In this document: positions 57-38,580 of the stretch, piece after piece | Position numbering within the stretch: the first letter of the stretch is position 1 | Layout of the letters: each line of letters starts with the position of its first letter | Source of the DNA: Candidatus Caldarchaeum sp. | Lineage (GTDB): Archaea; Thermoproteota; Nitrososphaeria_A; Caldarchaeales; Caldarchaeaceae | Direction: 5' to 3' | NCBI GenBank assembly: GCA_038831915.1 | Contig: JAWBKB010000001.1 | Coordinates: 96,001-160,000, forward strand | Length of the DNA stretch: 64,000 nucleotides | The notes under the pieces: generated by a model | Seen by the model: only the letters and a program-made list of their open reading frames with translations | What the model was told of the DNA's origin: nothing | Database searches by the model: none | Translations under genes and position numbers: made by a program

Positions 57-1337
57 ATGGCAGCTTGGTGGAAAGACAAACGACTTTGGTTTGTAGTTTT
101 TCTCACGTTGTTGGCTTTCGGTATAAGGATTTACAAAATTCATATTCCGGACCGATTAATCGGTGACGAAGTTTACTACGTGCCGGCTGCCCGTAGTATC
201 TTGGGGCAGAACGAAGCAGGTGTTCCACGGGATGTTGGATACGCTCATCCACCTTTAGCTAAGATGATTATCGCTGTCGGAATCGCATTATTCGGAGACA
301 ACCCTTTTGGATGGAGAATAATGTCAGTAATCGCCGGCACCATAATCATCCCAGCGTTCTATGTTCTTGTCAAAAAACTGACGCAAGACTCGAAAGAGTT
401 GGAGAACGCGCCAACGTTGGCTGCTTTTCTAATGTCTTTCGAAACATTAACCTTCTATTTTTCACATGTGGCTAGAATCGACATTTTCATGATGCTGTTT
501 TTCATAGTCGGCGCGGTCTTTTTGATGGAGAAAAAAACTTGGAGAAAGCTTCTTGCCGCACCTCTGTTTGCCTTGTCTTTTCTTTCGAAGGAAGCCGCAT
601 TACTCATGATTCTACCACTTCTACTCTGGGCCGGGATAAGAACGGAGGCGAAAAACACGAGGAAAACAGCAAAAAAAGCCCCCCTCAAACATAGATTTGA
701 CTGGAAAACTGTCGGTGTTCTTTTGGCCGCTACAGGCATATGCATAGCAGGTATGTGGTATGTGCTCGAGTGGGTTGTTCTCACTCCTCGGGTTCCAAGC
801 TTGGTCGAACGGATTTCGCTGATGTTGCGAAGGCTTGATATAGACAATCCAGCGGCACGTGGTCGTAGCGAAATTTGGATGTGGTTCTTCAACCAACCCG
901 TTACAAGAGCTGCGGCTGTTCAGCCAGGGGTCAGAATAGACCCAGCAACCATAAACGTTGGTCCAATCCTCAATCCTGTTCTCCAGTACGCATACATCGT
1001 TCAACCAAGCTGGACCATCATCCTGCCCATGATTCCGACGATGGTCTACATGCTGTATCTTTCGCGGTCCAGCAGCGTCGCAAGGTTTGTGGCGATGTCC
1101 TGGTTTGGTGTACTGATAGGATGGATAATAGTCAACGTTGCTTTCAGAGGTTTGATGTACTTGTTTTACGTCTTGACCTTAGTTCCAGCGGTGATAATCG
1201 GAATCTCGATATATTTGAGTCGAGGCCTTTACTATGAATCAAAAAACAAATCCGTCAAAATATCGCTGATTAGTTTTGTGTATTTGTTGTTACATGTAGT
1301 CAATTTCGTCGCGTTATATCCCGTACCAGTCTCATAA
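57..1337 (+). CDS. GT-C fold glycosyltransferase (PMT/GT39-like, polyprenyl-phosphate-sugar dependent)
   Basis: Multi-TM protein with GDEVYY acidic loop after TM1, HPPLAK and FGWR motifs typical of the PMT family. Confidence 0.8.
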   Translation: MAAWWKDKRLWFVVFLTLLAFGIRIYKIHIPDRLIGDEVYYVPAARSILGQNEAGVPRDVGYAHPPLAKMIIAVGIALFGDNPFGWRIMSVIAGTIIIPAFYVLVKKLTQDSKELENAPTLAAFLMSFETLTFYFSHVARIDIFMMLFFIVGAVFLMEKKTWRKLLAAPLFALSFLSKEAALLMILPLLLWAGIRTEAKNTRKTAKKAPLKHRFDWKTVGVLLAATGICIAGMWYVLEWVVLTPRVPSLVERISLMLRRLDIDNPAARGRSEIWMWFFNQPVTRAAAVQPGVRIDPATINVGPILNPVLQYAYIVQPSWTIILPMIPTMVYMLYLSRSSSVARFVAMSWFGVLIGWIIVNVAFRGLMYLFYVLTLVPAVIIGISIYLSRGLYYESKNKSVKISLISFVYLLLHVVNFVALYPVPVS

Positions 1338-1363
1338 AAACACCAGCGCGCGATTGATTCCGA

Positions 1364-1448
1364 TGCGGGGGGTGGGATTTGAACCCACGAACCCCTTCGG
1401 GACAGGGGCCTGAACCCTGCGCCGTTGACCAGGCTTGGCGACCCCCGC
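1364..1448 (-). tRNA. tRNA-Leu(CAG)
   Basis: Reverse complement GCGGGGG...CAGGG-TT-CAG-GC-CCCTG...long variable arm...GGTTCAAATCC...CCCCCGCA; 85 nt, no intron, CCA not encoded. Confidence 0.95.
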
Positions 1449-1567
1449 AGCGGTTCTAATTTTCGTATCGGAATTGATAAGGGTTGCGAATTCGTTTGAC
1501 GACTTTTTCGTGAGTTTTATTTCTTTATGTTTTTATGTTCGGGGTTATGTGATGTGGCCGGAGAAAA

Positions 1568-2725
1568 TTGACCGAAGTTGTGACAGGTTTAGGCTACATG
1601 AACAAGGTTTACAAAAACGTTAGCAGCATTGACATGAACAGTTTGGAAAGACTTTTGCATGACATTCAGTCCGCAGGCGTGATTATTCCGCTTGGTGAAG
1701 GCCGTTCAAAAGGTGCTTTAAGCATCGCCATGAGTGAGTTGGCGAAGATGCGTGACGGCAAAATCGTGATAGACCGCGGGGACATCGGGTTTCCGGGCCG
1801 AGAAATGGCTGAAGCAGCTCCCATACTCAAGCAAAGGTTTGGCCGGGTTTGTCTCCTCATCAACTCCGGGTCGGGAAGAAGCATGACACCTTTGGTGGAC
1901 GCGCAAAACCTCGCCTCATACATCGGGAAAACCGGCGCACACCGCGATTACATAATTGATTTAGTCACTTCGGACGTCGAATCACCTCTCGCAAAAATCG
2001 CTTCCAAATACGGCAGCGTTGTCGAGCTTGCGGGAAGAGAGGAAGTCGTCGAAGCTGAAGAAGCCAAAGTTTTCCGCGACGTAGGAATCATGGAAGACAC
2101 GTTTATTCTCGGAAGCGGAGTCGTTTTTCATGCCATCGCGGAAACTCTTTATGATAAAGCGTTGCCGCACAAAGCTCACGAATACGCTCGCGAAATCTGC
2201 GCTGAGGCGGCGAGGGTGGTGGAAAAAAGCCTTTCATCGGAATTCTATGAATTCGTCACAAGAAAGCTTGAGACACGGAGCCTCGCATTCTTCGCCGGGT
2301 TGGGGAGTAGCTATGAAGTAGCTCGAATGACCGCTGTCAGAGTTGGGCATATCAAGCGCGCGATAGGCGACCAAGTTTATGTCGCGAGAGAATCCAGCAC
2401 CCCGGCCCCCAGGAACGGAGACCTTCTCATAGTTGTCTCAAGCAGCGGTGAAACGGAAATTGTAGCGACATGGTGTAAAAGCTTTAAACGGATGGGTGGG
2501 CAAATCGCCGCCGTCGTGGGAAATGCTGACAGCACCATCGCAGCCATGGCCGATGGTGTTTTAGAAATTCCCGCGAAAACCGAACCAGGGCGGCCAAACC
2601 GGTTCTACGTATATGCGGAATTCGTCCTCAGCCCACTACCTATCTTACTCGTCGAAAGCCTTGAAGCAAAAGGATTCAGGCTACCGGAATATATCCTCCG
2701 CTGGCACCAAAGCGTGACTGCATAG
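1568..2725 (+). CDS. Tandem SIS-domain protein (6-phospho-3-hexuloisomerase/HxlB-like)
   Basis: GEGRS and NSGSGRS in the N-terminal half; GLGSS and VSSSGET in the C-terminal half: two SIS domains. Confidence 0.7.
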   Translation: MTEVVTGLGYMNKVYKNVSSIDMNSLERLLHDIQSAGVIIPLGEGRSKGALSIAMSELAKMRDGKIVIDRGDIGFPGREMAEAAPILKQRFGRVCLLINSGSGRSMTPLVDAQNLASYIGKTGAHRDYIIDLVTSDVESPLAKIASKYGSVVELAGREEVVEAEEAKVFRDVGIMEDTFILGSGVVFHAIAETLYDKALPHKAHEYAREICAEAARVVEKSLSSEFYEFVTRKLETRSLAFFAGLGSSYEVARMTAVRVGHIKRAIGDQVYVARESSTPAPRNGDLLIVVSSSGETEIVATWCKSFKRMGGQIAAVVGNADSTIAAMADGVLEIPAKTEPGRPNRFYVYAEFVLSPLPILLVESLEAKGFRLPEYILRWHQSVTA

Positions 2726-3778
2726 CTATTCCAGCACAGGCCTTATCGGTCTACCCAACTGTTCATAAAACTCTCTCATCCAAGGCAATATATCACGGCC
2801 CAGTAAGTTGAGAAACCTTTCCTCGTTCGGGCTCGCGCTGTGGATGTAAACGCGGTCAAACCCAAGCCTGAGGAAATTGGCCAAAGCCTTGAAAATATCG
2901 TCGACGTCCGTAGTTATGAGCCACGTTTCTTTGATTTTTTGTCTTTCGACTTCTCCGACCATAGCCTCTAACACACGCGGGTCTGAAATCTGTTCGCGTT
3001 TGTCCCGAGGAATCGCTGTCGGGGCCCAGAACAAAGCAGCACGATACGCTCTTTCGTAATCGTGGTCGTAGGATACTTTGAATTCGAGACATTTGCTCAA
3101 TTTCGAAGGGTCTTTACCCGCTTTTTTCGCCCCTCTCTCCAACGCATTCACAATCGACATGTAATTCTCCATACCACGTGGATTCGTGATTATTCCGTCG
3201 CAATATTCTCCAGCTATTTCAGCAACAGTCGCGTTAGACGTCGCAACGTAGATCGGAATCTTCGTCTTCGGCTTGGTGTACAGCTTGGCACTCTTAATCT
3301 TGTAATACATCCCGTCGTAGTCGACGAAATCGCCGCGCCAAAGCAATTGAATTATCTCAATCGCTTCTTTAAGCCGTTGAACTTTTTCCTTAAATCCGGG
3401 CCATTTGAAGCCGAGAGGTGTTTCATTCATCGCATGCCCCGTTCCGACCGTTATGAAAATCCTGCCGGGATATAGATAGTTGAGTGTGGCAAACGCTTGA
3501 GCAACTATAGCGGGATGATACCTGAAAAGAGGAGTGGTAACAGCTGTCCCTACTTCGACTTTCTTCGTCTTCTCCGCGATTGCCCCTACAACAACCCACG
3601 GAAAACCGGCCTGCCCGCCGGTGTCTACCCATGGATGAAAATGATCACTTACTGCTATGATGTCAAACCCAACAGCTTCAGCGTGAATCGCATGAGCTAC
3701 AATTCTGTCCGGGTCATACTGTTCCATCCCAGCCCAATAACCCAGCCGAAGAACACCTTCAGCAGCCACATCAGTCAA
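2726..3778 (-). CDS. F420-dependent LLM-class oxidoreductase (G6PDH/FGD-like)
   Basis: SDHFHPW, GTAVTTP.FRYHPAIVAQAFATL and GTGHAMNE motifs of the FGD family. Confidence 0.85.
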   Translation of the reverse strand: MTDVAAEGVLRLGYWAGMEQYDPDRIVAHAIHAEAVGFDIIAVSDHFHPWVDTGGQAGFPWVVVGAIAEKTKKVEVGTAVTTPLFRYHPAIVAQAFATLNYLYPGRIFITVGTGHAMNETPLGFKWPGFKEKVQRLKEAIEIIQLLWRGDFVDYDGMYYKIKSAKLYTKPKTKIPIYVATSNATVAEIAGEYCDGIITNPRGMENYMSIVNALERGAKKAGKDPSKLSKCLEFKVSYDHDYERAYRAALFWAPTAIPRDKREQISDPRVLEAMVGEVERQKIKETWLITTDVDDIFKALANFLRLGFDRVYIHSASPNEERFLNLLGRDILPWMREFYEQLGRPIRPVLE

Positions 3779-28207: not shown

Positions 28208-30679
28208 CTAATCTGTCAAGAGAACTTTCAACGGAATGTTGGCGTACAACGCTTTGACAATTTCTTTGCCGTGGCTGGAGTTTTTCCTTACAGCTATCAT
28301 TCCTTTTCTTCCAACAGTTGCTGAAAAAAGAAATTGGTTTCCAGCGTAGATTCCGACGCTTTTGCCAGCCATGGAGGGGCCTAATTCGATGCGCAGGCTA
28401 TTGCCTGATTCCGATATCTTGAATTCCACCTCTTTCCCGAAGGAGGGTATTCTGGGCTCAACATCGATTGATACTTCGAGCTCTTTTTCGATTTTGCTTA
28501 TGTTTTCGCCTTTACGGCCTATGACGCGAGGTATGGCGTCGGGGTCGACTCTTACCACATATCGGTTTCTCGAAACCTCTTCCACTTCAACGTCCTCGTC
28601 GAAATTTTGGAGAGCTTGTTTGATCTTTTCCTTTATTTCGCGTTGTTCCACGACGAGTTGTTCAGATATTTTTCGCACGGGGATTATCACGTTTTCCTCC
28701 CCAAAGGTGTAGATTTCATATTCGAGCTGGTTCGTGAGGAAATCCCTTACCTCGACCAAAGGTCTTGCCAAGTCCTCCTCGGTCATTCCAGTTGGAACTC
28801 TCACTGTCATGTTCAGTGTGTAGACTTTTGTTATGTTGCCGGCTTCGAGAAAAACTACTGTGTCGATAATGTGTGGGATCATGCCGAGCTCGACGCGGCC
28901 TATGAATCGTTGAATAGCGCTGACAGCGTCGCTGGAATGAACGACGCCGATCATCCCGACGCCTGCAAGCCTCATGTCGCTGAAAATCTGAAAATCCCTG
29001 TCCTTGCGGATTTCGTCGAAAACCGTGTAGTCAGGCCGCACAAGCAGCAGAATTTCCGCTGTTTTCTCAAAATCTCCCTCAAGAGGCCCGTATTGTGTGA
29101 TTTCTGGCCCGACTTGAAGGTCTCGCGGTGACTCGAGCGTTTTGACGATTTTTCCTTTACGGCTGTAGAATTCGGCTAGGCTTGCTGCGAAAGTTGATTT
29201 TCCACTTCCAGGGGGGCCGGCGATAAGAATTCCCTCGGCTTTCTTCTCGAACCTTTCGAGGAGACGTGGAGGTAGATTATAATCTTCGATACGTAGCTTG
29301 ACTATAGGCCTGACAACGGTAATTTCGAGGCCGTCGCTGAACGGAGGTCTCGCAACAGCTATTCGGTAGTTGCCTATCTGTGCTACGAAAGCACCTGCGC
29401 GGACTATTTCGATGCTCCCCTCAGGCTTGACCCGTGCGTATTCGGTGATTTCTTTGATTAGGTTGTTGAGTTCCGATTGTTCAAGAGGCCTCTCGTCGAG
29501 TTTGATGAGTTGAAAGTTGCCGGGTTTCCCGCGTTTTGCCATTAATGGCGCGCCTTCCTTGAAATGAAGGCTTAACGTGTCCTCGGTAAAGTACTGTTCG
29601 AAAGACATTTTCGCCGGAAGCTCGGTCGGAGGAAAATATTTGACTGCAACGCCTTCGGTTTCTGCGACGAGTGATTGGACGTAATCAGAGGTGTATAGGA
29701 CAGCGTTTTCACGTTTCGCGACTTCTCTAATGAGCGCGTCTATTCGGCCTTTCCTCGCGAGTTTGATATCTTCTAGACTCGGCCTTTCTCCAACTATCCT
29801 AATTGTCAACCGGTGTTGAGAAGCGAGAGACCTTATTTTTTTCAGCTCATTTAGTCCAACAAATCCCGGCTCTCGCTTCTGTGATGCTTGGGCTTGCAGC
29901 TCGTCTATAGCCGCTGCAGGAATGATTAGTTCAGCGCCGTCAATCTGACTGGTTTCGACTAGCATCGCAACAGTGCCGTTGATGATGGCTGAAGTGTCAG
30001 GAACTATTTTCAACTGCTGATGTTGACCAGAAATTCCGAGATGGTTTAACAATTCACGTGGACTGTGAACAATTTGTGTCACTCCAGCTTGCGTCATTTC
30101 TTCGGCTGAATGATAGCCCCAGGAAACTCCTATGAAACGGGCTCCCGCCGCTGATGCTGCTCGGAAATCGTTTATGCTGTCTCCGACATATATCAAATTC
30201 GAAGGATAAATTTTCAATTCAGATAAGATTTTTAGCAGAATGTCGGGCCGTGGCTTCATTTTTCCCACGTCATCTCTTGTGTAGAGTTTTTCGAAATATG
30301 ATTCAAGCCCGGTTTTTCGAAGAGCTTGGACGGCCGCTTCTCGATGACTGTTGGTTGCGACGAATAGCCTGTAACCGTTTTTCCTCAGCTGTTCGAGGAC
30401 TTCGATGATTTCTGGATATGGCTCCGCGTCGGCGGCGGCCTTCAGCTCATCTTCCCGAAGAATCCGTAAAACCTCCTCGCGCATTTTTTCAAAAACTACA
30501 GATGGCATTGCTGAGGCGGCCCTGTCGAAAAAATCTTGGAACGATTCTTTTTCGGACATTTGGATGCCGTACTTCAAAACTAGTTCGGCCGCTTTTCTTT
30601 TGGCTTGAGAGAGGTCGATTTTCATCTTGATTAGCGTACCGTCGAGGTCCATTACCAAAATTGTCGAACCGTCATTCAC
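28208..30679 (-). CDS. HAD hydrolase fused to PIN-ATPase-KH protein (PINA family)
   Basis: DLDGT/ATN/KP.P/GDS..D HAD motifs, then VPDTS PIN, GPPGSGKST, ESPRDL, RPDY..FDE, KH motif IGRKG; start GTG after GGTGA SD. Confidence 0.88.
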   Translation of the reverse strand: MNDGSTILVMDLDGTLIKMKIDLSQAKRKAAELVLKYGIQMSEKESFQDFFDRAASAMPSVVFEKMREEVLRILREDELKAAADAEPYPEIIEVLEQLRKNGYRLFVATNSHREAAVQALRKTGLESYFEKLYTRDDVGKMKPRPDILLKILSELKIYPSNLIYVGDSINDFRAASAAGARFIGVSWGYHSAEEMTQAGVTQIVHSPRELLNHLGISGQHQQLKIVPDTSAIINGTVAMLVETSQIDGAELIIPAAAIDELQAQASQKREPGFVGLNELKKIRSLASQHRLTIRIVGERPSLEDIKLARKGRIDALIREVAKRENAVLYTSDYVQSLVAETEGVAVKYFPPTELPAKMSFEQYFTEDTLSLHFKEGAPLMAKRGKPGNFQLIKLDERPLEQSELNNLIKEITEYARVKPEGSIEIVRAGAFVAQIGNYRIAVARPPFSDGLEITVVRPIVKLRIEDYNLPPRLLERFEKKAEGILIAGPPGSGKSTFAASLAEFYSRKGKIVKTLESPRDLQVGPEITQYGPLEGDFEKTAEILLLVRPDYTVFDEIRKDRDFQIFSDMRLAGVGMIGVVHSSDAVSAIQRFIGRVELGMIPHIIDTVVFLEAGNITKVYTLNMTVRVPTGMTEEDLARPLVEVRDFLTNQLEYEIYTFGEENVIIPVRKISEQLVVEQREIKEKIKQALQNFDEDVEVEEVSRNRYVVRVDPDAIPRVIGRKGENISKIEKELEVSIDVEPRIPSFGKEVEFKISESGNSLRIELGPSMAGKSVGIYAGNQFLFSATVGRKGMIAVRKNSSHGKEIVKALYANIPLKVLLTD

Positions 30680-30732
30680 AGAAAATTCACCAATCATGTA
30701 TCCATAAATGGGACATCATAAACTTCTATCAT

Positions 30733-31921: not shown

Positions 31922-32461
31922 ATGACGTCGATTCCACGCGAGGAACTTGAAAGAATGGTTAGGACATGGCTTGAAATGGTTGAGCAGATTACGCGTAACG
32001 AAGGCCTTCCGATAATTCCGGATGAAAAGTCCGCTGACCCTTTATGGGTTGACGTCCGGGAGCTGCGTTTAAAATACCTCATTCCAGTCAGCAGGGTTAA
32101 GAAATTTTTCGACGGGCTGAAAGATGGTAAGGTTTTCGCGACCAAATGTCCAGTGAAGAATGTTTTCTATTTTCCGCCGCAGGTCGATTGTCCGTTATGT
32201 ATGGATGAAAACGTTGAATGGGTTGAAATCAAGGGAAACGGGACTTTGCTCACCTACACGATCATCAGCGTAAAACCTGCGAGCTATCTGCATTATCCAG
32301 ATTACGTAGTAGCGATAGCGAAAATGGATGAAGGATTCAACGTGCTTAGCTGGATGACTGTTGATGACCCGTCAAAAATCAAAGTTGGGATGCCGGTGAA
32401 ACTCGTCGTCAAAAGAAGAGAACCCGAAGGATTTTTCACTTACTATCTCGAACCAGTTTAA
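31922..32461 (+). CDS. Zn-ribbon/OB-fold (DUF35) thiolase partner
   Basis: ATKC...FPPQ.DCP.C, GTLLTYT; directly after the thiolase. Confidence 0.88.
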   Translation: MTSIPREELERMVRTWLEMVEQITRNEGLPIIPDEKSADPLWVDVRELRLKYLIPVSRVKKFFDGLKDGKVFATKCPVKNVFYFPPQVDCPLCMDENVEWVEIKGNGTLLTYTIISVKPASYLHYPDYVVAIAKMDEGFNVLSWMTVDDPSKIKVGMPVKLVVKRREPEGFFTYYLEPV

Positions 32462-33675
32462 ACTGCTCTCCGAGTAGTCGAAACAATCGACAGAACATCG
32501 CGGTCTTTGACCCGGTAGTCTCCCGGTAGCCTCAATCCCGACCTAACGTCGATAGCGTACAGCAGCCCCTTCTCAAGCTCGGAATGAATAGTTCTCGCGA
32601 GGTCTCGAACTGTTGAGTTTGGCGGCATCAAATAAGCGTCGGGCAAAATCTTCCCAGAGCGGTCTGCAAGTTTCGCAGGGTCCGAAACCGGGTAAACCAC
32701 GCTCATTCCCAACAGCTTGAAAACCGCGACGTTTATCGCAAACTGGACACCTGTCCGCATGTATTCTCCGAAAACCCGGGACTGAATAAACTCAAGCGCT
32801 TTTTTCTGTTCTGGTGTTAATTGTTCTTCGTGAAGTATTTTGAAGCTTTCCTCGCCTGGAATATATTTGACGAGTCCTTTCTGAACAGCTCTTCGCAAAG
32901 CGAGCTCCGCCTCAGCACTTGCGGGGATAACCATGTAGTTTGTCAAACTTTCTCGGAGAATTTCAAAGTTTTGATTCGCGGTTTCAAGGTCCATTTTATT
33001 AGCCAACACAATCATGGGTTTCGAGGCCTCGAGTAGTTTTTCAGCGAATTTCTTATCCTCGAGCATAGTCCATTTTTCGAATTCTTCGCCTTTCAGCCCC
33101 GTTTGTTTGAGGGCTGTTTCGATGTGGACTGCGTTTATCTTCACACCTTGAAGAACTTCTGCAAGAGTCTCGACGAAATCTTTGCCCGATTTGAGGTTGC
33201 GGACGATTTTGTCCTCCTGTCTGTCGATGAGCCGCATGAGCCACATCACGAGTTCTTCGTGAATATCGTAGAAATCTGCCAACGGGTTGCCTACCCCCAT
33301 CTCTGTGATTCTTCCTTCCTCGTCCACGCTGCCGGACGCGTCAACCACGTGAATCAAAGCATCAGCCTGTGAAGCTACTGATAAAAACTGGTTGCCCAAC
33401 CCTTTTCCAGCCCAAGCACCCTTAATCAGACCCGGTAAGTCAATCAACTCTATGGGGATATGTCTGTACCCGTCGATGCAAAGCGAGTTTCTTGGGTTGT
33501 CTTTGACGTTGAATTCTTTGCAGACGCACGGTGTTATGGCGTAGGTTGTGCCATAATTAGGTTGTTTGGTGGTGAAAGGATACGAAGATACTTCCGCGTA
33601 TTGAAGGGTTGCCGCGTTGAAAAAAGTTGTCTTTCCCGTGTTTGTTTTTCCGATGAGCCCTATCCTTATCGGCAT
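32458..33675 (-). CDS. ychF: YchF/Obg-family GTPase with TGS domain
   Basis: GKTNTGKTT, YPFTT, DLPGL..GA..G.GLGN.FL, NKMD. Confidence 0.9.
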   Translation of the reverse strand: MPIRIGLIGKTNTGKTTFFNAATLQYAEVSSYPFTTKQPNYGTTYAITPCVCKEFNVKDNPRNSLCIDGYRHIPIELIDLPGLIKGAWAGKGLGNQFLSVASQADALIHVVDASGSVDEEGRITEMGVGNPLADFYDIHEELVMWLMRLIDRQEDKIVRNLKSGKDFVETLAEVLQGVKINAVHIETALKQTGLKGEEFEKWTMLEDKKFAEKLLEASKPMIVLANKMDLETANQNFEILRESLTNYMVIPASAEAELALRRAVQKGLVKYIPGEESFKILHEEQLTPEQKKALEFIQSRVFGEYMRTGVQFAINVAVFKLLGMSVVYPVSDPAKLADRSGKILPDAYLMPPNSTVRDLARTIHSELEKGLLYAIDVRSGLRLPGDYRVKDRDVLSIVSTTRRAV

Positions 33676-35381: not shown

Positions 35382-35693
35382 ATGCACAAGGAGGCGAAAG
35401 ACTTGGTCGAAGACTCTGTTGTCTTGGTTGGAAGGAAACCGACGATGAACTACGTGCTGGCCACAACTTTGCCGTTGACAGAAGGCAAGAAAGTTGTGCT
35501 GAAGGCCCGTGGAAAAGCAATAGCCAAAGCAGTGGACGTAGTCGAAGTTGTTCGGAGGAGGTTTGTTCAAAACGCCGTCATCGAAAAGATAAACATCGGC
35601 ACCGAAGAAGGCAGGGTCGGTAACGACGGCCGCCAACGAAACGTCAGCACCATCGAAATCATATTGTCCCAACCGAAGCCAGCGAAGAAATAG
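35382..35693 (+). CDS. albA: DNA/RNA-binding protein Alba
   Basis: VGRKP.MNYVLA, LKARG.AI.KAVDV.E, VSTIEI. Confidence 0.95.
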   Translation: MHKEAKDLVEDSVVLVGRKPTMNYVLATTLPLTEGKKVVLKARGKAIAKAVDVVEVVRRRFVQNAVIEKINIGTEEGRVGNDGRQRNVSTIEIILSQPKPAKK

Positions 35694-35698
35694 GGCAA

Positions 35699-35719
35699 AA
35701 CCCGGCTAACATCCGGGTT
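35699..35719 (+). terminator. Short hairpin after albA
   Basis: AACCCGG-ctaacat-CCGGGTT, 7-bp stem, 5 nt after the stop codon. Confidence 0.3.
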
Positions 35720-35752
35720 CCCACATATTTTTATCGCTGCTAAAAGACATTC

Positions 35753-36418
35753 GTGACGACTTTGGACGAGATACCGAAGACATGGGAATGGGTCGTTTGT
35801 CGAAAATGCGGGACAAAAACACTAAAAGCAAAATTCTGCATGAGATGCGGCGCCGAGCTAGTTTACCGTCCTAAAGTTTCGCGGTCTTATGTTTTCGATG
35901 CTTTGGTTGTAGGTGAAGACACGGTTGGAAAATCGACGTTCATAGAAAAAATTACGTCAACTGGCGAAGTTGTGTCCCGGCAGCCTCCGTCCGATGGATT
36001 ATCAGCGATATGGGTGTTGAGGGATGTTGAAGTAATTATCACATTCGTAGAGAAATCCGCTGTCGATTTTAGACCAAATGACCAGATGAACGCGCTTCTT
36101 CTCCTTTTCGATTTAACAAATACTTTGACGTTTGTTAAATGTTTCAGAGTGCTTAAGATGGTTAAGGCGATGGAGGATAAGTTCAACACTTATTTGGTTG
36201 GAAACAAAGCCGATTTGATTGTTGACCGAGCTGTGCGACGTGAAGAAGCAGTTAAAGCCGCGAATGAATTCGGCGTAAGCTATTTCGAGGTTTCCAGCAT
36301 TTCGGCTGAGGGGATCAACTCATTACGGCAAACATTAATTAAAGACCTTCTGCAGTTTCGTCTAGAAACAGTAAAAAGAGTGTTGAAACGTGATGGACGA
36401 TTCGCTTCTCAGACGTAA
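35753..36418 (+). CDS. Zn-ribbon plus Ras/Rab-like small GTPase domain
   Basis: CRKC...CMRC; G1 GEDTVGKST, LLFDLT, G4 GNKAD, G5 YFEVSS; G3 DxxG absent. Confidence 0.8.
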   Translation: MTTLDEIPKTWEWVVCRKCGTKTLKAKFCMRCGAELVYRPKVSRSYVFDALVVGEDTVGKSTFIEKITSTGEVVSRQPPSDGLSAIWVLRDVEVIITFVEKSAVDFRPNDQMNALLLLFDLTNTLTFVKCFRVLKMVKAMEDKFNTYLVGNKADLIVDRAVRREEAVKAANEFGVSYFEVSSISAEGINSLRQTLIKDLLQFRLETVKRVLKRDGRFASQT

Positions 36419-37412
36419 AGATGTATGGTCGTTGCTTAACTATTTGGACAAAACTCAAACCGAGATGCTTGACCCCGTTCTGGAGAGAGGCATATACAGA
36501 TACCCGGTGGTCGAGGAATTCGTCAAAGACGATGTTGACTCGGTTTTGGAAGGTTTGGCTGACCTCGGTTTTCTGCAGAGGCAGCTCTTAGACTCCGTTA
36601 TGAGCTGCCCCGCGTGCGAAGGTTTTTCACATCTTTTGAAGCCAGTTTGTCCCACATGCAGCTCAGGACGGTTGATGAAGGGAAACGTCATCGAACATCT
36701 CCTATGTGGATACGTCGACTTTGAACATGAATTCCTGTCGCATGGATTCAAATGCATAAAGTGCGGAAAAGAACTGAAGACTTTGGGAGTAGACTATCGA
36801 AAAACAGGAGTGTTCTTCAAATGCATTTCATGTGGAAGAATAACGGCGGTCCCTATCAGACGTTACATCTGCACCAATTGCGGCAGGGCAAACATGGAGG
36901 AAGAACTGAACCTGAAACCTGTCTACCGATACATTGTTGTAAAAGAAAAGTTTCCACTTCTCAAGGGAATCTTCTACGACTTATCCCCACTGATAGATTA
37001 CATAGCTGCTAAGGGATACATGGTGCAGTCACCAGCGAAAATAGTCGGCACTTCGGGAGTCACTCACGAGTTCACATTGTACATTAACGTGTGGGGGCAG
37101 GTTATTTCCTCAGGACTCGTCGTAGACATCGTAAGCGAGGTCAGCGAAGAAAAAATCTACGAATTCTTCACGAAATGCTTAGACGTAAAAGCAGGGGCGT
37201 CACTGCTTCTTGTCGTCGGCCAAGCGAGCGAAAAAGCGCGAAAACTCGCCTCAACCTTCAACATTAGGCTCGCCGAATTCGTAACAGTCGACGAACTGAT
37301 TGAAAAATCAAAGACGATAATCGAGGAGTTGCTGGAACGTCTGCGTGAAAAAGAACTTATGTCTGAAGCCGGTTTTCTGGAAGACCTACTGCGTGAACTC
37401 GAAAAGAAATAA
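36390..37412 (+). CDS. TackOD1-like multi-Zn-finger protein with C-terminal restriction-endonuclease-like fold
   Basis: RYP...L..LA..G.L, CP.C, CP.C, IEH..CG, C.KCG..L...GVDY, C..CG, C..CG; then G.SGV.HEF. Confidence 0.75.
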   Translation: MMDDSLLRRKDVWSLLNYLDKTQTEMLDPVLERGIYRYPVVEEFVKDDVDSVLEGLADLGFLQRQLLDSVMSCPACEGFSHLLKPVCPTCSSGRLMKGNVIEHLLCGYVDFEHEFLSHGFKCIKCGKELKTLGVDYRKTGVFFKCISCGRITAVPIRRYICTNCGRANMEEELNLKPVYRYIVVKEKFPLLKGIFYDLSPLIDYIAAKGYMVQSPAKIVGTSGVTHEFTLYINVWGQVISSGLVVDIVSEVSEEKIYEFFTKCLDVKAGASLLLVVGQASEKARKLASTFNIRLAEFVTVDELIEKSKTIIEELLERLREKELMSEAGFLEDLLRELEKK

Positions 37413-37773: not shown

Positions 37774-38580
37774 GTGTCCATGGTTGATAGAAGAGAAGCA
37801 GCTGCATCTGGATTAGCGGTCTTCTCTATCGCCTTGATACTGATGGAGTATTTCTTTGAGCTTGGCGTCGATCAATTTTTTGTGATTCTGGTTGTTGATG
37901 GAATCGTTGTCACAGCTTTGTTCGCGGAATTGTTGATGAGAGCCCGTGAATCAGGTCGGCTTGGCGTTTACATGTTACGACATTGGTACGAGGTTTTGGC
38001 GCTGGTTCCGCTGGCATTTTTCTACTTCATCGAAACATACACAGTGCTCGGTGCTTCAATCAGAGCGTTGAGGCTTTCGAGGGCTTTGCGGCTGCTTTTA
38101 GTATTGGCTCGGACGAGGAAAACTCTGAACTATGTGGTCGAAATCGTGAAAATTAGCAGGCTCGGATACTTGTTCGCCGTCTCTGCCGCCATGGTTTTTG
38201 CTGGGACGATTTCCGCTTTCCTCCTCGAAGTAGGTGTAGCGGACTCGAAAATTAGAGACCTAGGGGACGCGTTTTGGTGGGCCTTAGCAACGGTTACGAC
38301 CGTCGGCTACGGCGATGTTGTCCCTGTCACGCCTTTAGGACGCGTGATCGGCTCAATACTCATGATTACGGGAATCGCTATACTCGGCGTCTTCATCTCC
38401 TCGCTCGGCTCCACTTTATTGTCGATTTCAAAACCACCGACGTCGCCGCTTCAAGAAATGAAAGATTTTGTGAAAAACAAGGTCGACATCATCGAGAACT
38501 TATCAGAGAAGGATGTAAACGAGCTGGTGGAATTAATAAGAATGCTTCACGCTATCAATTCAAGTAGGTCCGGCAGATAG
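37774..38580 (+). CDS. Voltage-gated potassium channel (6TM)
   Basis: S4 RALRLSRALR; selectivity filter TVTTVGYGD. Confidence 0.93.
   Translation: MSMVDRREAAASGLAVFSIALILMEYFFELGVDQFFVILVVDGIVVTALFAELLMRARESGRLGVYMLRHWYEVLALVPLAFFYFIETYTVLGASIRALRLSRALRLLLVLARTRKTLNYVVEIVKISRLGYLFAVSAAMVFAGTISAFLLEVGVADSKIRDLGDAFWWALATVTTVGYGDVVPVTPLGRVIGSILMITGIAILGVFISSLGSTLLSISKPPTSPLQEMKDFVKNKVDIIENLSEKDVNELVELIRMLHAINSSRSGR

What the first reader, a model, noticed from the sequence alone, without database searches (positions are those of the whole stretch)
35753..37412. Zn-ribbon Rab/Ras-like GTPase with degenerate switch motifs coupled to a TackOD1/nuclease-fold protein: candidate archaeal signalling module
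Seen: two ORFs overlap by 29 nt directly behind albA. ORF1 has a 4-Cys zinc ribbon fused to a domain with Ras/Rab-type G1 (GEDTVGKST), LLFDLT, G4 (GNKAD) and RAV...EA...A..FG..YFEVSS. Its switch I reads PSDG instead of PTIG, and G3 DxxG is replaced by EKSA. ORF2 has a winged-helix-like start, about six CxxC/HxxC pairs, a C-terminal restriction-endonuclease-like segment (GTSGVTHEF) lacking obvious D...(D/E)xK residues, and an acidic coiled-coil tail. Established: TackOD1 is an output domain of TACK response regulators; the G2 Thr and G3 Asp/Gly are needed for Mg2+ binding and switching. Inference: a pseudo-GTPase or nucleotide sensor paired with a receiver-less output protein, i.e. a eukaryote-like small-GTPase input replacing phosphorelay input.
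Basis: partly seen in the sequence, partly recalled or inferred. Interest (0 to 1): 0.72.

Follow-up and report, generated by a model that had tools for sequence, protein, structure and literature searches.

The report
Rab-like GTPase paired with nuclease-fold partner
Two overlapping archaeal genes encode a small Ras/Rab-type GTPase whose switch motifs have decayed and a zinc-rich protein ending in a restriction-enzyme-like domain; the pairing recurs in several distant archaeal lineages, so it looks like a real, undescribed signalling pair.

Summary
ORF1 (35753-36418) is a Zn-ribbon + Ras-family protein. ORF2 (36390-37412) is TackOD1 plus a C-terminal domain that I link, transitively, to the Mrr_cat restriction-endonuclease fold without the canonical catalytic Lys.

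The pair sits behind alba in 13 of 14 loci of two related genera. Every genus-mate (11 of 11) lacks the switch-I Thr and the DxxG motif but keeps P-loop, NKxD and G5. ORF1 dN/dS is 0.18-0.30, so it is a maintained, probably nucleotide-binding but switch-deficient GTPase.

The sister genus and more distant relatives have canonical motifs, so the decay is genus-level, not strain-level.

New here: the same GTPase subfamily sits directly upstream of an ORF2-like gene in a Nezhaarchaeales MAG, a Bathyarchaeota MAG and five metagenome contigs. In the Bathyarchaeota type the partner is only the nuclease-fold domain plus tail. So the constant partner is that domain, not TackOD1. All 19 linked GTPases fall on one side of a single tree branch, and 73 informative unlinked small-GTPase loci lack such a neighbour.

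A GT2 polysaccharide-synthase-like gene often follows.

The parts
35382..35693 (+). alba (DNA/RNA-binding protein Alba), conserved upstream neighbour
   Evidence: Pfam Alba E 1.5e-14. NCBIfam AlbA E 6e-31. Upstream of the pair in 14 of 14 loci of genera g1+g3 and in the g3-type loci L071, L072, L086, L087.
35725..35737 (+). A/T-rich TATA-like element about 20-30 nt upstream of the ORF1 start (possible own promoter, leaderless mRNA)
   Evidence: Read by eye. Not tested: the promoter tool covers sigma-70 only. Inference.
35753..36418 (+). ORF1: N-terminal Zn-ribbon + Ras/Rab-type G domain with degenerate switch I/II + basic C-terminal helix (221 aa)
35798..35848 (+). ORF1 Zn-ribbon CxxC-x9-CxxC (C16, C19, C29, C32)
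   Evidence: Invariant in 13 of 13 orthologues. Weak Pfam Zn_Ribbon_1 hit, E 6e-4.
35912..35938 (+). ORF1 G1/P-loop (G54-x4-G59-K60-S61)
   Evidence: G54, G59, K60 invariant in 13 of 13.
36050..36061 (+). ORF1 former G3: E100-K-S-A in place of DxxG, followed by a 6-residue deletion in switch II
   Evidence: Alignments. All 11 genus-g1 sequences have Glu here and no Gly. The g3, Nezhaarchaeales and Bathyarchaeota types have WD[TV][AST]G.
36203..36214 (+). ORF1 G4 N151-K-A-D154
   Evidence: N151 and D154 invariant, K152 in at least 90%.
36287..36298 (+). ORF1 G5 E179-V-S181-S
   Evidence: E179 and S181 invariant.
36323..36391 (+). ORF1 basic amphipathic C-terminal helix
   Evidence: Conserved '..RL...K..L' pattern in g1, g3, G153 and G338 GTPases. 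Net charge of the last 24 aa is +2 to +7 in 19 of 19 linked GTPases.
36390..37412 (+). ORF2: TackOD1 + Mrr_cat-like nuclease-fold domain + helical tail (340 aa; likely start ATG 36393)
36426..36935 (+). ORF2 TackOD1 domain (aa 13-182) with 5 CxxC + 1 HxxC
   Evidence: Pfam PF18551, 119 bits. Cys/His invariant in 25 sequences. The motif count matches the description in PMC5847659.
36975..37325 (+). ORF2 C-terminal Mrr_cat-like restriction-endonuclease-fold domain (aa ~196-312): GxSGxxHxF ... D246 ... K262xxD265
   Evidence: No direct Pfam hit. The A3 profile finds 833 representatives. Of 148 examined, 36 match Mrr_cat and 5 match NA-iREase1. Stand-alone hits match Mrr_cat end to end above cut-off. 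hhalign of A3 against those proteins gives 99.9%, E 3.5e-31.
37326..37409 (+). ORF2 C-terminal helical tail with '..LE..L..L' motif
   Evidence: Seen in all 19 GTPase-linked partners examined. Absent in 6 partner-less orthologues (L015-L020) and in G005, where the GTPase has decayed.

Best explanation
ORF1 and ORF2 are a two-gene small-GTPase module.

Shown:
- A dedicated subfamily of Rab-like GTPases is inherited together with a gene directly downstream, usually overlapping it. That gene's constant part is a divergent Mrr_cat-type (restriction-endonuclease-fold) domain followed by a short helical tail.
- In Caldarchaeales and Nezhaarchaeales this domain is fused behind a TackOD1 zinc-ribbon domain. 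In Bathyarchaeota-type loci it stands alone.
- In the window's genus the GTPase gained an N-terminal Zn-ribbon (shared with the sister genus). It then lost the switch-I Thr, the DxxG Gly and six switch-II residues. It kept P-loop, NKxD and G5 and stayed under purifying selection.

Inferred:
- The GTPase binds the nuclease-fold domain and tail of ORF2 as its effector or regulator.
- The ancestral form works as a GTP/GDP switch.
- In this genus ORF1 still binds guanine nucleotide but no longer switches or hydrolyses in the canonical way. It would then act as a constitutive, pseudoGTPase-like subunit.
- The nuclease-fold domain is probably a binding module rather than a nuclease, because the canonical catalytic Lys and first Asp are missing.

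More weakly inferred:
- The module acts on cell-envelope biogenesis. A membrane GT2 polysaccharide-synthase-like gene follows ORF2 orthologues in most lineages outside this genus. Relatives of the nuclease-fold domain are fused to type IV pilus ATPase modules.
- The GTPase's basic C-terminal helix could be a membrane-binding element.
For: Linkage:
- alba-GTPase-ORF2 in 13 of 14 ORF2-orthologue loci of genera g1+g3.
- In the class (76 genomes), the Ras-family hits that lie next to a TackOD1 hit are those of these 13 genomes (coordinates compared by eye).
- In 401 genomes of the phylum, further GTPase + ORF2-like pairs occur in G153 and G338.
- The four closest of 15 species-genome loci are pairs. 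So are the five closest of 80 metagenome loci.
- None of 73 informative unlinked GTPase loci has such a gene downstream.
- By longest-ORF calls the two genes range from a 2-nt gap to a 29-nt overlap in the 15 pairs with called ORFs.

One origin: the 19 linked GTPases are one side of a branch (SH-aLRT 89; 0 of 500 label shuffles as low). An inner clade of 16 with TackOD1-bearing partners has support 97.

Partner tail: present in 19 of 19 linked partners. Absent in 6 of 6 partner-less orthologues and in G005, where ORF1 is reduced to a remnant.

Motifs. The Ras model matches full length in g3, G153 and G338 (114-157 bits) against half length (56 bits) here.

Selection: ORF1 dN/dS is 0.18-0.30 in 5 unsaturated genus-g1 pairs.

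Fold assignment.

GT2: within about 1.2 kb of ORF2 in 8 of 8 non-g1 loci L013-L020, and downstream in L070, L071, L072, L086, L087. Pfam shows GT2 with chitin/cellulose-synthase-like hits.

Fusions of the domain with MshEN (5), T2SSE (3) and REC (8) among 148 relatives. arCOG06883/TackOD1 is reported in thaumarchaeal type IV pilus loci (PMC4858521, passage read).
Against:
- In the window's own genus no GT2 lies within 1.5 kb (0 of 12 loci). The GT2 orthologue is on another contig. The window's neighbourhood is unrelated housekeeping with no pilus genes.
- ORF2 orthologues do without the GTPase in other families. One genus-mate (G005, 90% complete) has let ORF1 decay, so the GTPase is dispensable in some settings.
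- The linked clade's support is 89, not starred, in a 'quick' tree with long branches. The group was also defined by the feature being counted.
- Kin are not independent. The linkage amounts to perhaps three or four independent lineages.
- The Mrr_cat link is transitive. ORF2 itself has no Mrr_cat hit. Direct hhalign to one canonical Mrr_cat protein is not significant (E 0.07).
- H226, D246, K262 and D265 are invariant or nearly so and could form a non-canonical active site, so 'inactive' is not proven.
- Charge complementarity between the GTPase helix and the partner tail is not general: partner tail net charge runs from -6 to +4.
Confidence: 0.55

Rival explanations
1. Same module, different output. 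ORF2 is a DNA-binding transcription regulator, with the N-terminal helical region, Zn-ribbons and an inactive nuclease fold reading DNA. The GTPase modulates its DNA binding. The GT2 and pilus genes would be regulon members, not physical targets.
For: TackOD1 occurs as REC-TackOD1 and REC-wHTH-TackOD1 response regulators (PMC5847659). Among 148 relatives of the C-terminal domain, 8 carry REC, 9 HTH_45 and 2 TrmB. The domain descends from a DNA-cutting fold. That most response-regulator outputs bind DNA is general knowledge, recalled.
Against: No HTH family hit in ORF2's own N-terminus. The Bathyarchaeota-type partner has neither Zn-ribbons nor an HTH yet keeps the GTPase. Fusions to MshEN/T2SSE ATPase modules point to protein machinery rather than DNA.
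Confidence: 0.28
2. A GTPase-controlled nuclease or defence system. The C-terminal domain is an active, non-canonical restriction-type nuclease, switched on by the GTPase.
For: Mrr_cat ancestry. Invariant or near-invariant H226, D246, K262, D265 could make a variant active site. One stand-alone relative (P0190) hits a PADLOC candidate model, PDC-S02, at E 1.6e-7.
Against: ORF1 and ORF2 have no PADLOC hit better than E 0.0078, which is a P-loop-only match, and no meaningful PHROGs hit. ORF2-family genes are near-universal in the class, 74 of 76 genomes, with stable synteny next to alba or GT2. That is unlike defence islands. The Lys of (D/E)xK and the first Asp are missing in ORF2 orthologues.
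Confidence: 0.06
3. The genes are neighbours by descent only. ORF1 in this genus is a decaying relic with no role in ORF2's function.
For: Loss of G2/G3 and a switch-II deletion. ORF1's dN is about twice ORF2's. ORF1 decayed in G005. ORF2 orthologues work without it elsewhere.
Against: dN/dS is 0.18-0.30. P-loop, NKxD, G5 and four Cys are invariant. An intact ORF is present in 11 of 12 genus-g1 genomes that hold ORF2. The same pairing recurs in three other lineages and the GTPases form one clade. The tail and the GTPase are present or absent together.
Confidence: 0.08

Closest known systems
Archaeal 'Rab-like' small GTPases (Ras family PF00071; Surkont & Pereira-Leal 2016, PMC4915359)
   Same: G-domain homology. 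The best solved matches are Rab27, Rab11 and EhRabX3. The nearest named database relatives are labelled Rab family GTPase, from Nitrososphaerota and Asgard archaea. That paper lists one very divergent Rab-like protein in Caldiarchaeum subterraneum (passages read). It may be the orthologue; I did not verify this.
   Different: N-terminal Zn-ribbon. No switch-I Thr, no DxxG, shortened switch II. A fixed downstream partner. The passages I read mention neither the partner nor the motif loss.
PseudoGTPases / atypical small GTPases (RGK, Rnd, CENP-M classes; recalled, not from a call) and EhRabX3 (PDB 5c1t)
   Same: Ras fold with nucleotide-binding motifs kept and catalytic or switch motifs altered. 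EhRabX3 is the top solved-structure match, E 2.8e-12.
   Different: Archaeal, Zn-ribbon-fused and operon-coupled. Nucleotide binding is not measured here.
MglA-MglB type prokaryotic small-GTPase pairs (Wuichet & Sogaard-Andersen 2015, PMC4316618; abstract and one passage read; the MglB/Roadblock partner is recalled)
   Same: A small Ras-superfamily GTPase encoded beside a dedicated partner gene.
   Different: The partner here is a TackOD1 + Mrr_cat-like protein, not a Roadblock/LC7 GAP. The GTPase is Rab-like, not MglA-like.
TackOD1 output domain of TACK response regulators (PF18551; arCOG06883; Galperin et al. 2018, PMC5847659)
   Same: ORF2 residues 13-182 match at 119 bits, with the described 5 CxxC + HxxC pattern.
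   Different: No receiver domain. The paper calls the function obscure, and the passages I read do not describe the C-terminal nuclease-fold domain or a GTPase neighbour.
Mrr_cat (PF04471) and NA-iREase1 (PF22722) restriction-endonuclease-fold domains
   Same: Transitive profile homology of ORF2's C-terminal domain.
   Different: No direct Pfam hit. The canonical D...(D/E)xK is not kept: Thr at the first Asp position (by eye), and D246-I-V where ExK stands in a canonical Mrr_cat protein (register, itself not significant). The domain has its own motif, GxSGxxHxF...D...KxxD.
Rho1 GTPase as regulatory subunit of fungal glucan synthase (recalled analogy only)
   Same: A small GTPase associated with a processive membrane polysaccharide synthase. 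This would parallel the GTPase-ORF2-GT2 gene order.
   Different: No homology claimed. An adaptor protein sits between them. The GT2 is unlinked in the window's genus. Purely a functional analogy.

Membership tests
Ras/Rab small GTPase (PF00071) | Pfam model above gathering score | tested here: met
   56.2 bits against cut-off 21.6, but only model positions 71-161. Relatives in g3, G153 and G338 match positions 1-160 at 114-157 bits.
Ras/Rab small GTPase (PF00071) | G1 P-loop GxxxxGK[ST] | tested here: met
   G54, G59, K60 invariant, S/T61.
Ras/Rab small GTPase (PF00071) | G2 switch-I Thr | tested here: not met
   No conserved Thr in the 11 genus-g1 sequences. The window has 'PPSDG', with Ser or Pro at the aligned position depending on the alignment. 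Relatives have 'PT'.
Ras/Rab small GTPase (PF00071) | G3 DxxG (switch II) | tested here: not met
   E100-K-S-A followed by a 6-residue deletion. 11 of 11 genus-mates lack it. All 8 examined linked relatives outside the genus keep WDxxG.
Ras/Rab small GTPase (PF00071) | G4 NKxD and G5 SA(K) | tested here: met
   N151-K-A-D154. E179-V-S181-S, where Ser is invariant and Ala/Lys are not kept in the window.
Ras/Rab small GTPase (PF00071) | GTP binding and hydrolysis | not testable with these tools
   Needs a biochemical assay.
TackOD1 (PF18551) | Pfam model above gathering score, with 5 CxxC + HxxC | tested here: met
   119.2 bits against cut-off 32, model positions 11-187 of 188. C73/76, C87/90, H103/C106, C122/125, C145/148 and C161/164 are invariant. 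This matches PMC5847659.
TackOD1-type response regulator | Fused receiver (REC) domain | tested here: not met
   No Response_reg hit in ORF2. REC occurs in 8 of 148 relatives of the C-terminal domain.
Mrr_cat restriction endonuclease (PF04471) | Pfam model match | tested here: not met
   No hit at E up to 10 for residues 181-340. Only transitive: 36 of 148 profile hits match it. P0190 scores 34 bits and P0263 scores 30 bits, cut-off 21. hhalign of A3 against those proteins gives 99.9%.
Mrr_cat restriction endonuclease (PF04471) | Catalytic D...(D/E)xK | tested here: not met
   ORF2 orthologues have T/S/A/L after 'HxF', where wider relatives have Asp. D246 is followed by a non-Lys residue two positions on. 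The register against a canonical Mrr_cat protein comes from a non-significant hhalign, so the mapping is tentative.
Known anti-phage defence systems (PADLOC) | Match to a defence-system protein model | tested here: not met
   ORF1 has only a P-loop-level hit at E 0.0078. ORF2 has none.
GTPase + nuclease-fold-partner module (defined here) | GTPase of the linked clade directly upstream of a gene with the A3-type domain and '..LE..L..L' tail | tested here: met
   Window pair. 19 of 19 clade members are linked.

The most novel reading that the evidence does not exclude
An ancient archaeal switch, present in Bathyarchaeia, Nezhaarchaeales and Caldarchaeales. In it a Rab-like GTPase, anchored by a polybasic C-terminal helix, binds an inactivated restriction-endonuclease-fold adaptor to control a processive GT2 exopolysaccharide synthase and/or type IV pilus machinery. 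This would be a prokaryotic counterpart of Rho1-glucan-synthase control. In Caldarchaeum the GTPase has been converted into a Zn-ribbon pseudoGTPase, so the module would be regulated by something other than GTP hydrolysis.
Probability: 0.18. Interest if true: 0.8.

Novelty: new variant of a known kind. Interest (0 to 1): 0.62.

Why it matters
Functions and partners of archaeal Ras/Rab-like GTPases outside Asgard are essentially unknown. TackOD1 is a widespread domain whose function its describers called obscure.

A GTPase subfamily with one fixed partner domain across three archaeal orders gives both proteins a testable context: who binds whom, and which domain is the effector. The locus also offers a natural series to compare. 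It runs from a canonical GTPase, to a Zn-ribbon GTPase, to a switch-dead Zn-ribbon GTPase, to gene loss. That series is unusual material for studying how pseudoGTPases arise.

The recurrent GT2 neighbour suggests a route to finding how these thermophiles control surface polysaccharide or adhesion. None of this touches eukaryogenesis directly. The GTPase is Rab-like by similarity only.

Tried and rejected
- Structure and complex prediction: structure prediction and complex prediction were closed, so there is no fold, no fold search and no binding test.
- Word-index search with ORF1 alone found only a 98% twin and one insect Rab27. That low yield reflected ORF1's divergence, not absence of relatives.
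- Profile of full ORF2 against PDB sequences: only Zn-ribbon noise, E 0.066 or worse.
- ESM Atlas on the C-terminal part: scores of 0.86 to Mrr_cat/NERD clusters, below the 0.9 line. Used only as a lead.
- hhalign of A3 and of A5 against one canonical Mrr_cat protein: not significant, E 0.07 and 0.17. Only the register was used, and tentatively.
- Charge complementarity between the GTPase C-terminal helix and the partner tail: the GTPase helix is basic in 19 of 19, but partner tails range from -6 to +4. Rejected as general support.
- G371 (L054): a 104-aa nuclease-fold ORF lies 400 bp upstream of a GTPase, but that GTPase falls outside the linked clade. Not counted as a pair.
- Type IV pilus context in the window: the only T2SSE-like hit nearby is the P-loop of a HAD-PIN-ATPase-KH fusion. 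Rejected.
- Defence role: PADLOC and PHROGs gave nothing for ORF1/ORF2.
- RNA evidence: contigs of one metatranscriptome (X9) at 99% or more cover 35419-35901 (alba into ORF1), 35908-36061, and four stretches of ORF2 between 36423 and 37211. Nothing covers 36062-36422. By the tool's own caveat, contigs in an RNA library do not show transcription or a single transcript. X17 laid nothing.
- Literature: searches for 'TackOD1', 'arCOG06883', 'small GTPase'+'Aigarchaeota', 'iREase', and 'small GTPase'+'restriction endonuclease'+'archaea'+'gene neighborhood' found no description of this pairing. Subscription journals are not covered. Supplements were closed and not requested. Table S5 and Fig. S7 of PMC5847659, and the supplementary figures of PMC4858521, may bear on TackOD1 neighbourhoods.
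- Rows dropped: P0176 (3428 aa) was left out of the Pfam container A4 for the size limit (149 hits reduced to 148). L070-L073 were left out of the tree as duplicates of L052, L033, L051 and L053. L003/L050 ORF2 has an in-frame TAA and was left out of A2, A3 and the dN/dS calculation. Only GTPase frames with at least 120 model positions entered the tree.
Full report
**What is there.** The two ORFs are as described. ORF1 is 35753-36418 (+, 221 aa). ORF2 is 36390-37412 (+, 340 aa). They overlap by 29 nt, or by 26 nt if ORF2 starts at the ATG at 36393 as a 339-aa near-identical database protein and the Atlas record suggest. They lie 59 nt behind alba. Pfam gives Ras PF00071 for ORF1 (E 4e-15) but only for model positions 71-161, plus weak zinc-ribbon hits. 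It gives TackOD1 PF18551 for ORF2 residues 13-182 (E 2e-34) and Alba for the upstream gene. The best solved-structure matches of ORF1 are EhRabX3, Rab27 and Rab11. Named relatives of ORF2 are labelled Candidatus Caldarchaeum. The genome is 95.6% complete in 34 contigs.

**Linkage in close relatives.** ORF2 has a match in 40 of 41 related genomes. Full-length ORF1 homologues occur in 13 of them, including the window's genome. The other 9 hits at E 1e-3 or better are zinc-ribbon-only matches in other proteins. Local BLAST on the 20 ORF2 loci shows alba-GTPase-ORF2 in 13 of the 14 loci of genera g1 and g3. The exception, G005 (90% complete), keeps alba and ORF2. Between them is a shortened stretch in which only the G5 'ETSAK' and the C-terminal helix of ORF1 are recognisable. 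ORF2 orthologues of other genera (L015-L020) have no GTPase upstream. In the whole class, TackOD1 is found in 74 of 76 genomes, usually in several copies. The Ras-family hits that lie next to a TackOD1 hit are those of the same 13 genomes, by my comparison of the listed coordinates; 17 TackOD1 matches were not listed.

**The degenerate motifs.** In the 13-sequence alignment the four Cys of the zinc ribbon, the P-loop (G54, G59, K60), N151/D154 and E179/S181 are invariant. All 11 sequences of genus g1 lack a conserved switch-I Thr. They have Glu plus non-Gly residues where DxxG should be, followed by a six-residue deletion in switch II. Both g3 sequences, and four further database relatives, have 'PTF[DE]' and 'WDT[AS]GG'. 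They match the Ras model end to end at 114 bits. So the loss is fixed in the genus and is neither a strain accident nor the ancestral state. Nei-Gojobori dN/dS for ORF1 in five unsaturated g1 pairs is 0.18-0.30, against 0.05-0.31 for ORF2 and 0-0.24 for alba. ORF1 is a maintained gene that evolves about twice as fast as ORF2 at non-synonymous sites.

**ORF2's C-terminal domain.** Residues ~183-340 have no Pfam hit and no solved relative by sequence. A profile of this part from 18 orthologues (A3) finds 833 cluster representatives at E 1e-3 or better among 1.84 billion. They are stand-alone, tandem, or fused at either end of larger proteins. Of the best 150, I scanned 148. Of these, 87 carry TackOD1, 36 match Mrr_cat, 5 NA-iREase1, 9 HTH_45, 8 Response_reg, 5 MshEN, 3 T2SSE and 1 KaiC. 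Stand-alone members match Mrr_cat over essentially their whole length above the curated cut-off (P0190 34 bits, P0263 30 bits). hhalign of A3 against five such proteins gives 99.9% probability, E 3.5e-31. Its conserved pattern is GxSGxxHxF ... D246 ... K262xxD265. ORF2 orthologues have Thr/Ser/Ala/Leu where the wider family has Asp after 'HxF'. No Lys lies two residues after D246. The register against a canonical Mrr_cat protein comes from a non-significant alignment. I read this as a probable binding module, but a variant active site is not excluded.

**The pairing outside the class.** This is the main new result. Searching 401 genomes of the phylum with the ORF1 profile, the zinc-ribbon form is found only in g1 and g3 (12 genomes). 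Plain small GTPases occur in 30 others at E 1e-8 or better, some of them zinc-ribbon-only hits. Scanning the 30 fetched loci with local HMMs gave three new cases:
- G153: a canonical GTPase (YVPTV, WDTAGM; Ras 137 bits) lies 2 nt upstream of a full TackOD1 + nuclease-fold protein, with a GT2 gene next.
- G338: a canonical GTPase (WDVAGQ; 157 bits) overlaps a 159-aa protein that is only the nuclease-fold domain plus tail.
- G371: a 104-aa nuclease-fold ORF lies 400 bp upstream of a GTPase.

The 15 other GTPase loci had no such gene within 1.5 kb.

A scan of one genome per species across prokaryotes returned 15 loci. The four closest are pairs: a Nezhaarchaeales MAG, two Nitrososphaerota/'HR01' records and a Bathyarchaeota MAG, which are the same loci as G153, G014, G017 and G338. 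The other 11 (Asgard, Thermoplasmata, bacteria) are not pairs. A metagenome scan kept 80 of 135 confirmed loci. The five closest are again pairs: one Nezhaarchaeales-like, two g3-like and two Bathyarchaeota-like. The other 75 are not, and 48 of those 75 have at least 500 bp downstream to judge from.

**Tree and co-varying features.** A tree of 134 G domains puts the 19 linked GTPases on one side of a single branch (SH-aLRT 89; 0 of 500 label shuffles as low). It nests Bathyarchaeota type, then Nezhaarchaeales type, then g3 and g1. The g1 stem is 1.02 changes per column. G371's GTPase falls elsewhere, so I do not count it.

**Features that travel with the pairing.**
- Every linked GTPase outside g1 has canonical G2/G3.
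- A '..RL...K..L' basic helix ends the linked GTPases. Net charge is +2 to +7 over the last 24 aa in 19 of 19.
- A '..LE..L..L' helical tail ends all 19 linked partners. It is missing from the six GTPase-less orthologues L015-L020 and from G005.
- A GT2 gene with chitin/cellulose-synthase-like Pfam hits lies within about 1.2 kb of ORF2 in 8 of 8 non-g1 loci. It lies directly downstream in the g3 and Nezhaarchaeales loci, but in 0 of 12 g1 loci. The window genome's GT2 orthologue is on contig C21.

**How it most likely works.** Shown: a conserved, probably translationally coupled gene pair; a dedicated GTPase clade; retention of nucleotide-binding motifs with loss of switch motifs in this genus; Mrr_cat ancestry of the partner domain. 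Inferred: the GTPase binds the nuclease-fold domain and tail. In most lineages it acts as a GTP switch. In this genus it acts as a switch-deficient, nucleotide-binding subunit. The output probably concerns envelope polysaccharide or pilus machinery, based on the GT2 synteny, the MshEN/T2SSE fusions, and the report that arCOG06883 sits in thaumarchaeal pilus loci. A transcription-factor output is the main alternative. A defence role has no support. The window's neighbourhood is otherwise unrelated housekeeping.

**Expression.** One metatranscriptome holds 99%-identical contigs over alba into ORF1 and over parts of ORF1 and ORF2, but not over the junction. By the tool's caveats this shows presence in an RNA library only.

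**What is known.** TackOD1 was defined in 2018 with 'obscure' function. Its arCOG was noted in pilus loci in 2016. A single divergent Rab-like protein in Caldiarchaeum was listed in 2016. My five literature searches found no description of the GTPase-partner pairing or of the motif loss. Supplements were closed.

**Limits.**
- No structure, complex or earlier-findings tools.
- The linked lineages are few and related.
- The tree is a 'quick' one with long branches.
- The Mrr_cat link is transitive.
- Function is inferred from neighbourhoods that do not hold in the window's own genus.

Noticed in passing
L012 2472-2965 (G005): Between alba and the ORF2 orthologue, ORF1 is reduced to a remnant. 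Only 'ETSAK' and the C-terminal helix align, with no Zn-ribbon, P-loop or NKxD. In the same genome ORF2's tail motif is replaced. A database protein (P0014) shows the same altered tail.
   Followed up: partly
L013-L020, L070-L072, L086, L087: A membrane GT2 glycosyltransferase (Glycos_transf_2, with chitin- and cellulose-synthase-like hits) lies next to ORF2 orthologues in every non-g1 locus examined. It is co-directional downstream in the g3 and Nezhaarchaeales loci and convergent in L015, L016, L019 and L020. In L017 and L018 it lies further off with other sequence between (an annotated ORF in L017).
   Followed up: partly
proteins P0146, P0159 and others: The ORF2-type nuclease-fold domain occurs as tandem duplicates and is fused to MshEN/T2SSE (type IV pilus ATPase) modules, REC, HTH_45 and KaiC in other organisms.
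   Followed up: partly
window 28208-30697 (-): An 829-aa fusion protein: HAD phosphatase + PIN + P-loop ATPase (weak T2SSE hit) + KH domain.
   Followed up: no
window 37774-38580 (+): A two-family ion-channel hit (Ion_trans_2 / Ion_trans) with a 'TVGYGD' potassium-filter motif, directly downstream of ORF2. The same gene follows ORF2 in L003 and lies further downstream in L010, but not in other genus-mates.
   Followed up: no
L003 / L050 (G011) ORF2: The ORF2 orthologue carries one in-frame TAA that splits it after about 279 aa. The rest continues in frame. Either a sequencing error or a recent pseudogene.
   Followed up: no
window 35699 (alba-ORF1 spacer): A metatranscriptome contig (X9) lacks 26 nt here relative to the window. 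Two DNA runs do not show the deletion. Probably strain variation in the spacer just upstream of the TATA-like element.
   Followed up: no
L054 (G371) 601-3187: A 104-aa nuclease-fold ORF, a canonical Ras-family GTPase with a 55-aa N-terminal extension, and a Zn-ribbon + methyltransferase gene lie in a row. The GTPase is outside the linked clade, so this may be an independent association.
   Followed up: partly
window 32458-33675 (-): A 405-aa ORF with an N-terminal P-loop of the kind seen in Obg/YchF-type GTPases, by eye. Not scanned.
   Followed up: no
L016 1249-2487 (-) (G016): The ORF2-like protein of genus g2 is 412 aa and ends in an extra Cys-rich zinc-ribbon extension instead of the helical tail. 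That contig (C20) holds three TackOD1 genes within 21 kb.
   Followed up: no
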